A DNA stretch of 64,000 nucleotides from Zygnema circumcarinatum SAG 698-1b (GCA_037447605.1 CM074817.1:1054001-1118000), one strand, 5' to 3'. Counted from the stretch's first letter, positions 4,774-13,905 are shown. Numbers and translations are program-made. Notes: generated by a model from the letters alone, not told the origin.

Positions 4774-7700
4774 CTATGTCCTCCCGGGGGATCCCGGAAG
4801 CATGAACTTAGCATTGAACGCTTGCTCAAGGAGATACAGCCATGGCTTCCTCCTCCCTTCTCCCTCAGTGGGGGGAGAGGAGCTAGGAACCTGCTGAGGC
4901 CTAGTAACCGAAATAAGAAGGTCACGAAACGCAGCCTGCAAGCGATGGCAATCAACCATATATTGATTACGCCGTACTACACCTCTCTCTTGGCGATAAC
5001 GAGCAAGAAGGAAAGGGAGAGAAAAATGAAAGAGGTGCGAGAGAGAGAGAGGGAACAGTGAAAGAGAGAGAACCGAAAGAGAGGGAGAACAGAGAGAAGA
5101 AGAAGAGAGGAGGAGAAGAAGAAGGAGAGGAGAAGGGAGAGGGCGAACAATACCTGCACATGCCAGATGGCGAATGATCCGGCTCCAATATTGGCCCCGG
5201 GGCGGAGGGGGTCGTCGATCCATAGAGCGGTGGGCCGCTGCGTGGGGTCGTGCCAGAACACGCCATCCGGGAGAGAGCTCGAGTTCTGTGAGGGAAAGAG
5301 GAGCAGTCAGTTGGTTCCATGATGCATTTCAATGACCAGTTAAGAGATGTTCATGTAATGAGTGACAACTGAAATGAGCCAAAACTGGCTTGCCAAATGC
5401 ACACTGCCACACGGGGAGGAGTGGCAGGTATATATATATATATATATATATACAGAGAGAGAGAGAGAGTATATATATATAGAGAGAGAGAGAGAGAGAG
5501 AGCATATATAAGTATAAGTGAGAGAGAGACATATATATATATATATATATATATATATATATATATATATATATATATAGAGAGAGAGAGAGAGAGAGAG
5601 AGAGAGAGAGAGAGAGAGAGAGAGAGAGAGAGAGAGAGAGAGAGAGAGAGAGAGAGAGAGAGAGAGAGAGAGAGAGAGAGAGAGAGAGAGAGAGAGAGAG
5701 AGAGAGAGAGAGAGAGAGAGAGAGAGAGAGAGAGAGAGAGAGAGAGAGAGAGAGAGAGAGAGAGAGAGAGAGAGAGAGAGAGAGAGAGAGAGAGAGAGAG
5801 AGAGAGAGAGAGAGAGAGAGAGAGAGAGAGAGAGAGAGAGAGAGAGAGAGAGAGAGAGAGAGAGAGAGAGAGAGAGAGAGAGAGAGAGAGAGAGAGAGAG
5901 AGAGAGAGAGAGAGAGAGAGAGAGAGAGAGAGAGAGAGAGAGAGAGAGAGAGAGAGAGAGAGAGAGGAGAGAGAGAGAAAGAGAGAGAGAGAGAGAGAGA
6001 GAGAGAGAGAGAGAGAGAGAGAGAGAGAGAGAGAGAGAGAGAGAGAGAGAGAGAGAGAGAGAGAGAGAGAGAGAGAGAGAGAGAGAGAGAGAGAGAGAGA
6101 GAGAGAGAGAGAGAGAGAGAGAGAGAGAGAGAGAGAGAGAGAGAGGAGAGAGAGAGAGAGAGAGAGAGAGAGAGAGAGAGAGAGAGAGAGAGAGAGAGAG
6201 AGAGAGAGAGAGAGAGAGAGAGAGAGAGAGAGAGAGAGAGAGAGAGAGAGAGAGAGAGAGAGAGAGAGAGAGAGAGAGAGAGAGAGAGAGAGAGAGGAGA
6301 GAGAGAGAGAGAGAGAGAGAGAGAGAGAGAGAGAGAGAGAGAGAGAGAGAGAGAGAGAGAGAGAGAGAGAGAGAGAGAGAGAGAGAGAGAGAGAGAGAGA
6401 GAGAGAGAGAGAGAGGAGAGAGAGAGAGAGAGAGAGAGAGAGAGAGAGAGAGAGAGAGAGAGAGAGAGAGAGAGAGAGAGAGAGAGAGAGAGAGAGAGAG
6501 AGAGAGAGAGAGAGAGAGAGAGAGAGAGAGAGAGAGAGAGAGAGAGAGAGAGAGAGAGAGAGAGAGAGAGAGAGAGAGAGAGGAGAGAGAGAGAGAGAGA
6601 GAGAGAGAGAGAGAGAGAGAGAGAGAGAGAGAGAGAGAGAGAGAGAGAGAGAGAGAGAGAGAGAGAGAGAGAGAGAGAGAGAGAGAGAGAGAGAGAGAGA
6701 GAGAGAGAGAGAGAGAGAGAGAGAGAGAGAGAGAGAGAGAGAGAGAGAGAGAGAGAGAGAGAGAGAGAGAGAGAGAGAGAGAGAGAGAGAGAGAGAGAGA
6801 GAGAGAGAGAGAGAGAGAGAGAGAGAGAGAGAGAGAGAGAGAGAGAGAGAGAGAGAGAGAGAGAGAGAGAGAGAGAGAGAGAGAGAGAGAGAGAGAGAGA
6901 GAGAGAGAGAGAGAGAGAGAGAGAGAGAGGAGAGAGAGAGGAGAGAGAGAAGGCAAGGATTGACACGCATGAACGTCATGAAATGGAATCTTCCGTTCTA
7001 AACGTGTACAGGATGTTACATGCATTGACGGGCAGCCACTGACAAATTGCTCAATTTGTCAGTGGATGTCGGTCTGCGGATTGCACCGATCAGAATCCAC
7101 TGACCAAAATCGGAGATTGCAAATAGGAACGGATATGAAGCGCGATTCATCATCTTCATTGGGCAACTCCGTGCAGCTTAATTGGACAACAACATGGGTC
7201 AATATGGCGTAACATGAAAGGCTGGGATGAGCGCTCACCTTGAGCACAAGGCGCACTCTAGAGAATTCGATTTCGTGGCCAAAGGCTTGCAGAAAGCCAA
7301 CAAGCAGAATACCAAAGCTCGGCGAAGGCACTGACTTTATCGAATCGGGAAGCTCCTCCACAATGCCCTTACCTTCCACTCCCTCCCTTGAAGCAGCCAT
7401 GGCTGCCAACGCTTGTCGCAAGCGCACTCTAGTGGGAGAACTCCCACCAGAATTCGAATCAGAATTTGAAGCAGCCGAGGCCTCCCCATTCTCTTCACTC
7501 CCAACTACTCTTTCTGAAACCTCCTGGAGAGCATGCTCAGAGCAGCTGCTTTGGGTAACATTCCTGTCAGAAGAGAAGGGCCCACTTGCACTCCCTTCTC
7601 CAGCACGGTCAGATTCCTGCTTCCTCTCTCCTGCTTCCGCAACCCGCAATCCCTCTCCCTCCTTTGCTTCGCTGCATGCTTCTTTCTCTTTCTCCGAATC

Positions 7701-13700: not shown

Positions 13701-13905
13701 ACTCGAAGTAGAAGTAATTTGTGGTTGCGTGCAGGGCGGCGGATAACATACCAAAGAGGCTCCGCTTGAGATCCTCTCCCATGGTGTCATTGTTGCACAC
13801 AAATATGTAACCTCCGAGGGGCTCCTCTAGAGGGGGCGCATCGTTGGCAGGCGGAGATCGGTGGTCATCTCCTGCCTCCTGAAAGTATTTCCGGTGGTTA
13901 GCCAT
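4774..13905 (-). CDS. DCD-domain / TRF4(PAPD5, Cid14)-like non-canonical poly(A) polymerase fusion, ~1745 aa, 10 exons
   Basis: Exons (minus) 13752-13905, 13194-13294, 12789-12881, 12427-12537, 9749-12307, 9026-9589, 8710-8814, 7239-8495, 5154-5285, 4774-4935; all GT-AG, total 5238 nt, no internal stops. DCD: EPLGGYIFVCNNDTM..LFGLPQRYHDSVRAIQPGMPLFLYNY..HGIFE..AWE..SRFPSQVRV..FRPVLHHYDGPKFRLEL. NTase: VFGSFATGLALPNSDVDV, MDITI, LLLKSWLQHRGLNDVYTGGLGSFSL. PAP-associated: LWIDDPLRPGANIGAGSF..VQAAF. Confidence 0.88.
5429..6950. repeat. (AT)n/(AG)n compound microsatellite with a ~1.4-kb near-perfect (AG)n run, inside intron 8 of the DCD-NTase gene
   Basis: Directly visible. The long SL/RE-repeat ORFs here are artefacts of the repeat. 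Confidence 0.97.

What the first reader, a model, noticed from the sequence alone, without database searches (positions are those of the whole stretch)
4774..13905. DCD domain fused to a TRF4-like RNA-tailing enzyme: a possible reader-coupled tailing system
Seen: a complete N-terminal DCD domain is joined to an intact nucleotidyltransferase (GS..DVD plus third Asp) and a PAP-associated domain. The last DCD residues (VHRLLVLF) and the first NTase residues (LWPGADVE) lie in one uninterrupted 853-codon exon, so the fusion is not an artefact of joining exons. Known: TRF4/PAPD5/Cid14 enzymes tail RNAs for decay and normally need a separate RNA-binding partner; DCD has been grouped with the PUA-like EVE/YTH fold predicted to bind modified bases. 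Inference: DCD may supply in-cis substrate recognition. I do not recall this architecture being described.
Basis: partly seen in the sequence, partly recalled or inferred. Interest (0 to 1): 0.85.

Follow-up and report, generated by a model that had tools for sequence, protein, structure and literature searches.

The report
DCD reader fused to RNA-tailing enzyme
One spliced gene joins a DCD domain, predicted to share the fold of proteins that read modified bases, to an enzyme of the RNA-tailing type with its catalytic residues intact; the same fusion occurs from green algae to conifers but was not found in flowering plants, and it likely picks out certain RNAs and adds tails to their ends.

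Summary
The fusion is real. Ten exons give a 1,745-aa protein. All nine splice junctions are seen in assembled contigs, and one 6,205-nt contig matches the whole spliced model. It is not a one-off. DCD plus this nucleotidyltransferase occurs in 13 named genera (Closterium, liverworts, mosses, lycophytes, ferns, Taxus, Cryptomeria). No flowering-plant hit appeared. A second, unnamed eukaryotic group has a DCD–transferase–RRM version; whether it shares one origin is unresolved. The catalytic aspartates are invariant and the closest solved relative is yeast Trf4. The family nonetheless lies outside the canonical TRF4/TENT4/TRL group, and its base-selecting loop has lost the Asn and Lys/Arg that those enzymes keep, so the added nucleotide is unpredictable. 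A DCD model matches EVE and YTH readers (Z 13.4 to 9.3 for the top ten). Most likely DCD is a tethered RNA-targeting module for 3' tailing (0.5). The main rival is a protein-docking role (0.3), since measured plant DCD ligands are proteins. Ten literature searches found no description; one figure of the key DCD paper could not be seen. Verdict: new variant of a known kind, testable in Marchantia or Physcomitrium.

The parts
13906..14381 (-). 5' UTR (inferred extent); in-frame stop upstream of the ATG at 14010
   Evidence: contig extends 431 nt past 13950 and model length equals contig length
13752..13905 (-). Exon 1 (residues 1-51), start of DCD domain
   Evidence: PF10539 positions 1-21, weak
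13194..13294 (-). Exon 2 (residues 52-85), DCD
   Evidence: PF10539 E 1e-9
12789..12881 (-). Exon 3 (residues 86-116), DCD, including conserved W99 and F113
12427..12537 (-). Exon 4 (residues 117-153), DCD
   Evidence: PF10539 E 0.0025
9749..12307 (-). Exon 5, 853 codons: last DCD helix (12284-12307), low-complexity linker of about 800 aa (9884-12283), first helices of the transferase (9749-9883)
   Evidence: linker has pLDDT <50 in the Cryptomeria homologue model
9026..9589 (-). Exon 6: catalytic palm; G1009-S1010, D1021 (9545-9547), D1023 (9539-9541), D1140 (9188-9190)
   Evidence: PF22600 E 6e-9, PF01909 E 8e-7; conservation
8710..8814 (-). Exon 7: central domain helices with the GGLGS motif
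   Evidence: aligned to Trf4 141-197
7239..8495 (-). Exon 8: acidic insertion of about 390 aa (7323-8489), then start of the PAP-associated region (7239-7322)
5286..7238 (-). Intron 8, holding a (GA)n array of about 1.4 kb
   Evidence: spliced out per loose ends
5154..5285 (-). Exon 9: nucleotide-recognition loop, residues 1671-1686 (5172-5219), with Ala1679 and Ala1683 where Trf4 has Asn and Arg
4774..4935 (-). Exon 10 coding part: C-terminal helices and stop
16535..18580 (-). Neighbouring stand-alone DCD gene on the same strand: exons at ~18411-18580, 17218-17328, ~16535-16588; middle exons missing, probably in the N gap at 17644-17653; an ancient paralogue, not part of the fusion transcript
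   Evidence: not checked against reads

Best explanation
This is one conserved protein in which a DCD domain, predicted to fold like EVE/YTH base readers, likely binds a feature of target RNAs and so holds them near a Trf4-related terminal nucleotidyltransferase that likely adds untemplated nucleotides to their 3' ends. Shown: a single spliced transcript, an invariant catalytic triad, and retention of the fusion from streptophyte algae to gymnosperms. Predicted: the PUA-like fold of DCD and a long disordered tether. Inferred: DCD binds RNA (a modified base such as m5C or m6A, or a short motif, as the Mmi1 YTH domain does by my recollection); it works as a flexible built-in adaptor, in the role Air2 plays for yeast Trf4; the tail is probably A-rich but may be mixed, because the base-selecting loop has lost its Asn and Lys/Arg; and the tail alters the RNA's decay or stability.
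For: Gene unity. Fusion in 45 of 48 family hits, 13 named genera. D1021 and D1023 in 43 of 43 aligned proteins, D1140 in 42 of 43. The family profile hits Trf4 (3nyb) at E 1.6e-36 against 2e-11 for Cid1; Foldseek rank 1 is also 3nyb, though TUT7 and Cid1 follow closely. DCD model (pLDDT 89.5) matches EVE PH1033 (Z 13.4, rmsd 2.8, 125 aligned), VcaM4I (Z 11.2), Mmi1 YTH (Z 11.1) and AtCPSF30 YTH (Z 9.3) (Foldseek agrees). Aromatic F51, W99 and F/Y113 are kept in 33, 35 and 40 of 43 rows; F51, W99 and F113 are shared with prokaryotic DCD protein L001, and W99 and an aromatic at 113 with L002 (both 39% identical). A second eukaryotic group joins DCD to a related transferase and adds an RRM, pointing to an RNA substrate. 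Other eukaryotic DCD fusions are with RNA-processing domains (CPSF30-like YTH/KH, CAPAM; PMC7641849). Cid1 His336 to Ala or Asn gives a poly(A) polymerase (PMC7498324).
Against: No paper I found shows nucleic-acid binding by any plant DCD domain. Arabidopsis NRP DCD binds the proteins CRY2 (KD 4.34 uM) and PevD1 (0.19 uM) in vitro (PMC13570309), and the fused DCD is very like the window's stand-alone neighbour (21 of 24 and 25 of 37 residues identical). A shared fold shows no function, and the mapping of the aromatics to a YTH-type cage is recalled, not computed. W99 is missing in Closterium and the two gymnosperms. 4 of 52 family rows lack DCD, among them the Klebsormidium and Mesotaenium models; these look truncated but I could not check their genomes. 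The DCD is near neutral in charge (18 K/R, 15 D/E).
Confidence: 0.5

Rival explanations
1. The enzyme tails RNA, but DCD is a protein-docking or localisation module, as in NRP: it would recruit the enzyme to partner proteins or a compartment under stress or developmental signals, while RNA is chosen by the core, the linker or partners.
For: Measured protein ligands for NRP DCD; NRP interacts with CRY2 and promotes FyPP3 degradation (PMC10388829). The fused DCD is close to the stand-alone neighbour. Human TENT4B needs no RNA-binding cofactor.
Against: The EVE/YTH fold, aromatics shared with prokaryotic DCD proteins, and repeated fusion of DCD to RNA-processing domains. Protein and RNA binding are not exclusive.
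Confidence: 0.3
2. DCD reads modified DNA (5mC-like) and would tether the tailing enzyme to methylated chromatin, so that nascent transposon or repeat transcripts are tailed for nuclear decay.
For: Top fold matches include modified-DNA readers (VcaM4I Z 11.2, THYN1 with 5mC DNA Z 8.4). Prokaryotic DCD domains are predicted to read methylated DNA. Trf4-type enzymes act in nuclear surveillance.
Against: My crude basic-cluster pattern found no nuclear localisation signal in the window protein (weak test). The second group carries an RRM.
Confidence: 0.1
3. The transferase does not tail RNA but would make another product (a nucleotide messenger or a nucleotidylated protein) when DCD senses a ligand.
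For: Altered nucleotide-recognition loop; family lies outside canonical TRF4; large insertions in the core.
Against: All 12 sequence hits among solved structures are RNA terminal transferases, led by Trf4; the listed Foldseek hits are too.
Confidence: 0.07
4. Two neighbouring genes were merged by the reader, or the fusion is a local accident without function.
For: A stand-alone DCD gene lies next door; contigs alone do not prove a single molecule.
Against: Open 853-codon exon, a single 6,205-nt spliced contig, the same fusion in 13 genera, and matching exon-6 boundaries in fragments nearest to a liverwort, a moss and ferns.
Confidence: 0.02

Closest known systems
Yeast Trf4p (PDB 3nyb) / TENT4A-B / Arabidopsis TRL non-canonical poly(A) polymerases
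   Same: Pol-beta palm with GS..DxD..D, GGL(G/S)S central helices and PAP-associated loop; best sequence and fold match.
   Different: Separate clade from the canonical group; loop Asn and Lys/Arg replaced by Ala/Val and Ala; fused N-terminal DCD, ~800-aa linker and acidic insertion; no DCD in any of 115 other TRF4-like rows.
Cid1 / URT1 / TUT7 terminal uridylyltransferases
   Same: Same fold.
   Different: Much weaker sequence match (E 2e-11 or worse); no histidine in loop residues 1671-1686.
Plant DCD proteins (NRP/B2/GDA2; subgroups I-IV of Tenhaken 2005, PMC1182354)
   Same: PF10539 domain with the FGLP, LFL, P(A/S)QV and PLxE motifs.
   Different: The four subgroups described (C-terminal, central, N-terminal with or without ParB, Kelch) do not include an enzyme fusion in the part I read.
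EVE and YTH modified-base readers; DCD-YTH-KH (CPSF30-like) and DCD-CAPAM fusions of Bell et al. 2020 (PMC7641849)
   Same: PUA-like fold; DCD joined to RNA-processing domains.
   Different: The text has 0 mentions of nucleotidyltransferase, Trf4 or NTP; the ligand of DCD is untested. Its Fig. 13 (plant DCD classes) could not be seen.

Membership tests
TRF4/TENT4/TRL poly(A) polymerases | Pol-beta core with GS motif and three catalytic aspartates | tested here: met
TRF4/TENT4/TRL poly(A) polymerases | Central/PAP-associated domain with nucleotide-recognition loop | tested here: met
   Aligned to Trf4 210-309; folded in model; Pfam PF03828 weak in homologues, absent on window exons
TRF4/TENT4/TRL poly(A) polymerases | Closer to Trf4 than to Cid1, GLD-2 or TUT7 | tested here: met
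   E 1.6e-36 against 2e-11 and weaker
TRF4/TENT4/TRL poly(A) polymerases | Falls inside the canonical orthologous clade | tested here: not met
   Canonical group of 12 is one side of a 96/87 branch without the family; 0 of 300 bootstrap trees join it with the four TRL-like rows. Caveat: canonical rows were labelled by motif and one named Toxocara protein; no Cid1/GLD-2 outgroup
TRF4/TENT4/TRL poly(A) polymerases | Loop Asn and Lys/Arg as in Trf4 and the canonical group | tested here: not met
   Canonical: Asn 43 of 49, Lys/Arg 45 of 49. Family: Ala/Val/Ile 44 of 52 and Ala 45 of 52, with 4 gaps each
TRF4/TENT4/TRL poly(A) polymerases | ATP-preferring RNA tailing; partnership with Air/Mtr4 (TRAMP) | not testable with these tools
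   needs biochemistry
Cid1/URT1-type uridylyltransferases | Uracil-selecting histidine in the nucleotide-recognition loop | tested here: not met
   No His in residues 1671-1686; the exact equivalence of Ala1679 to Cid1 His336 is recalled, not aligned by a tool
DCD domain (PF10539) | Profile match and signature motifs | tested here: met
   Exon 2 alone passes the Pfam cut-off; Marchantia homologue E 2.4e-39; own family profile E 1.9e-66 on the joined protein
EVE/YTH (PUA-like) readers | Fold | tested here: met
   Marchantia DCD model: Z 13.4, rmsd 2.8, 125 aligned to 1wmm; 15 chains at Z of 8 or more, all EVE/YTH/ASCH-like by title or recollection
EVE/YTH (PUA-like) readers | Aromatic cage that binds a modified base | tested here: inconclusive
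   Conserved aromatics exist, but no residue-level superposition was available
EVE/YTH (PUA-like) readers | Binding to modified RNA or DNA | not testable with these tools
   needs binding assays

The most novel reading that the evidence does not exclude
An ancient one-protein 'read the mark, write the tail' system: DCD recognises a chemically modified base on RNA and the fused enzyme, with an unusual base-selecting loop, writes a non-standard 3' tail that sets the RNA's fate. It was kept from streptophyte algae to conifers, lost in flowering plants, and arose in parallel or survives in a second eukaryotic lineage with an added RRM. It would also give the first nucleic-acid ligand for the plant DCD domain.
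Probability: 0.3. Interest if true: 0.88.

Novelty: new variant of a known kind. Interest (0 to 1): 0.7.

Why it matters
The molecular ligand of the DCD domain has been open since 2005, and the 2020 modified-base prediction is untested in what I read. A DCD domain fused to an enzyme with a sequenceable product makes it testable: tails with and without DCD reveal its targets. It also shows that plant tailing-enzyme inventories drawn from flowering plants miss a conserved subfamily present in Marchantia, Physcomitrium, ferns and conifers. If DCD reads a modification, this is a direct link from RNA marks to 3' tailing within one polypeptide.

Tried and rejected
No whole genome is held for this window, so copy number and synteny were not checked. 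Cluster names for unnamed proteins could not be obtained, so the lineage of the DCD-transferase-RRM group and of P0068 is unknown; the Atlas look-up was not informative on taxa. The DCD-to-transferase docking prediction could not be run because the queue was full; contact between the domains is untested. A metagenome scan with P0073 returned 2 loci, matching the DCD part only, both prokaryote-like stand-alone DCD proteins. No RNA holder was listed on record. Run X7 gave no cover, which proves nothing. The DCD stretch has no sequence hit among solved structures at E up to 10. Single origin of the two fusion groups: the quick tree made them sisters (SH-aLRT 85), the careful tree did not (42 of 300 bootstrap trees, against 239 of 300 joining the RRM group with DCD-less P0074), and the AU test does not reject one clade (p 0.349): unresolved. 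The sample is also biased, because the search profile held members of both groups. A recent tandem duplication from the neighbouring DCD gene was rejected: only 15 of 46 codons for identical residues are identical. 15 of 196 proteins were dropped from the tree alignment as too gappy; the careful tree used 57 of the remaining 181. Earlier-findings look-ups by words, sequence and place gave nothing on this fusion.

Full report
Gene structure. The finding is a ten-exon gene on the minus strand (13905 to 4774). Joining the exons at GT..AG sites gives an open frame of 1,745 aa. Residues 31-161 are a DCD domain spread over exons 1-5. Residues 162-961 are a low-complexity linker. Residues 962-1231 hold the nucleotidyltransferase palm and central helices, with G1009-S1010, D1021, D1023 and D1140. 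An acidic insertion of about 390 aa follows, and residues 1621-1700 complete the PAP-associated region.

Expression as one unit. Six public runs from three studies hold most of the stretch; none is on record as RNA. In 4 of 4 runs laid on 7000-13950, contigs skip seven introns exactly, and loose ends at 7239 match exon 9. In 3 of 4 runs laid on 3600-5440 the last intron is skipped; the fourth run had no cover. One contig of run X1 (6,205 nt, depth 110) carries pieces from the 3' UTR to beyond the start codon, and the spliced model from 4283 to 14381 sums to 6,205 nt. Contigs cannot show transcript starts, so an additional start inside exon 5 is not excluded.

Distribution. Exon 6 found the fusion in two Closterium strains and Marchantia paleacea. 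The Marchantia transferase region returned 53 proteins: 48 family members (E 2.7e-51 or better), 45 of them with PF10539, and 5 distant ones without it. Named carriers span 13 genera: Closterium, Marchantia, Riccia, Calypogeia, Sphagnum, Ceratodon, Physcomitrium, Selaginella, Diphasiastrum, Adiantum, Ceratopteris, Taxus and Cryptomeria. Sources name them only as hypothetical, uncharacterized, unnamed or DCD domain-containing proteins. A Cryptomeria query returned 58 proteins, 48 in the family, none named from a flowering plant. Of 28 unnamed proteins compared with named members, none had a gymnosperm among its three nearest. A soybean survey of 16 NTP_transf_2 proteins has no mention of DCD in its main text (PMC10816777, passages). 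Loss in flowering plants is therefore likely, but rests on word-index searches, not genome scans. Four of 52 family rows lack DCD: a 358-aa fragment, a fern-like ORF, and the Mesotaenium and Klebsormidium models. These may be truncated models; Klebsormidium could also show an unfused state. Exon-6 boundaries match those of single-exon fragments nearest to a liverwort, a moss and ferns, supporting orthology. The window protein groups with Closterium and Mesotaenium (95/90), so the source is likely a zygnematophycean alga.

A second group. An exhaustive profile search (best 150 of 6,799) brought up unnamed proteins with a related transferase. Of seven in one clade (100/100), four pass Pfam's DCD cut-off (P0061, P0071, P0073, P0075), one is below it (P0072), and two have at most traces (P0076, P0077). 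Five have a C-terminal RRM hit, three above the cut-off. None of the 115 other TRF4-like rows has DCD. Their lineage is unknown; that they are intron-poor protists is my guess. Whether the two fusions share one origin is unresolved.

The enzyme. The aspartates are present in 43, 43 and 42 of 43 aligned proteins, so catalysis is under selection. The family profile matches Trf4 (3nyb) at E 1.6e-36 over all three parts, against 2e-11 for Cid1. A full-length Cryptomeria model folds both domains, leaves residues 168-459 below pLDDT 50, and ranks 3nyb first, narrowly ahead of TUT7 and Cid1. In a 57-row tree of the core, the family (100/99) lies outside the canonical TRF4/TENT4/TRL-like group (96/87), among divergent unnamed TRF4-like proteins that include a Saprolegnia one (bootstrap not fully settled; no Cid1 outgroup). 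The nucleotide-recognition loop differs. Where Trf4 has Asn and Arg and the canonical group keeps Asn (43 of 49) and Lys/Arg (45 of 49), the family has Ala/Val/Ile (44 of 52) and Ala (45 of 52). There is no histidine. In Cid1, His336 to Ala or Asn turns the enzyme into a poly(A) polymerase (PMC7498324, passages); I recall that Ala1679 is the equivalent position but did not align it. A-rich tailing is the best guess, with mixed tails possible. So it works like a Trf4-type enzyme but is not filed as a TRF4 orthologue.

The DCD domain. A model of the Marchantia DCD (99 of 135 residues identical to the window's; pLDDT 89.5) matches EVE PH1033 (Z 13.4, rmsd 2.8, 125 aligned), VcaM4I (11.2), Mmi1 YTH (11.1), YTHDC2 (10.7) and AtCPSF30 YTH (9.3); Foldseek lists only EVE and YTH entries among the rows shown. 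This backs the profile-based assignment of Bell et al. 2020 (PMC7641849; sections 12 and 13, passages and supplement text read). That paper also reports DCD fused to YTH/KH and CAPAM-like domains and says the plant ligand is unclear. The window DCD is 39% identical to two prokaryote-like DCD proteins and shares conserved aromatics with them. Against an RNA role, the measured ligands of Arabidopsis NRP DCD are proteins (PMC13570309, passages; PMC10388829, passages).

Mechanism. The most likely reading (0.5) is a tethered reader-writer: DCD binds a feature of target RNAs, the flexible linker raises their local concentration, and the core extends the 3' end. Yeast Trf4 needs Air2 for this while human TENT4B does not (PMC6232586, passages), so a built-in adaptor is plausible but not required. 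Rivals: protein docking (0.3), methylated-DNA tethering (0.1), a non-tailing product (0.07), artefact (0.02). No activity or binding is shown here.

Prior description. Ten full-text searches found no paper describing this fusion. The one paper with both 'DCD domain' and 'nucleotidyltransferase' concerns BREX (listing only). Tenhaken 2005 (PMC1182354, first third of the text) lists four DCD architectures in Arabidopsis and rice, none with an enzyme. Limits: the library lacks most subscription papers, and Fig. 13 of Bell et al., which draws plant DCD classes, is a picture I could not see. The architecture is visible in automatic Pfam annotation, so it is uncharacterised rather than hidden.

Verdict. 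This is a real, expressed, deeply conserved and apparently unstudied subfamily: a new variant of a known kind, interest 0.70.

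Noticed in passing
window 16535-18580 (-): Stand-alone DCD gene directly upstream on the same strand, sharing intron positions with the fused DCD; synonymous sites are saturated (15 of 46 codons identical). Middle exons are missing, probably in the N gap at 17644-17653.
   Followed up: partly
proteins P0061, P0071-P0073, P0075-P0077: Unnamed eukaryotic clade with DCD + related transferase + C-terminal RRM; its nucleotide-recognition loop is also atypical.
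   Followed up: partly
window 8815-8969: Minor alternative donor in run X3 (depth 14 against 174) extends exon 6 past a stop codon and would truncate the protein before the central domain.
   Followed up: no
window 9884-12283 (linker): Short conserved islands in the linker: a (G/S)(E/D)WE.V motif in 16 of 43, W(R/Q).D(A/S) in 14 of 43, and a WQGND/DPDPAVN-type motif in 18 of 43 proteins; candidate partner-binding motifs.
   Followed up: partly
Ceratopteris, Adiantum, Diphasiastrum hits: The family is expanded in ferns and a lycophyte: six Ceratopteris loci, three in Adiantum nelumboides and four in Diphasiastrum; some copies have eroded DCD motifs.
   Followed up: no
window 5580-6940 and 54100-54700: A (GA)n array of about 1.4 kb inside intron 8, and a hexamer-like repeat near 54 kb.
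   Followed up: no
window 50846-51656 and 52650-53460: Identical ORF sets repeated at an offset of 1,804 bases; tandem duplication or assembly artefact.
   Followed up: no
window 33045-37867, 44478-47623: A Phi-1/EXORDIUM-like exon followed by receptor-kinase-like exons, with a second similar kinase gene downstream; a Phi-1 ectodomain kinase is possible.
   Followed up: no
window 25245-30871 (-), 58025-62472: A glycosyl hydrolase 31 gene, and remains of a retrotransposon with RNase H, integrase C-terminal and chromo domains.
   Followed up: no
L001 9998-10723; L002 9983-10760: Prokaryote-like DCD proteins, 39% identical to the window's DCD, with a C-terminal part that looks nuclease-like by eye but has no Pfam hit.
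   Followed up: partly
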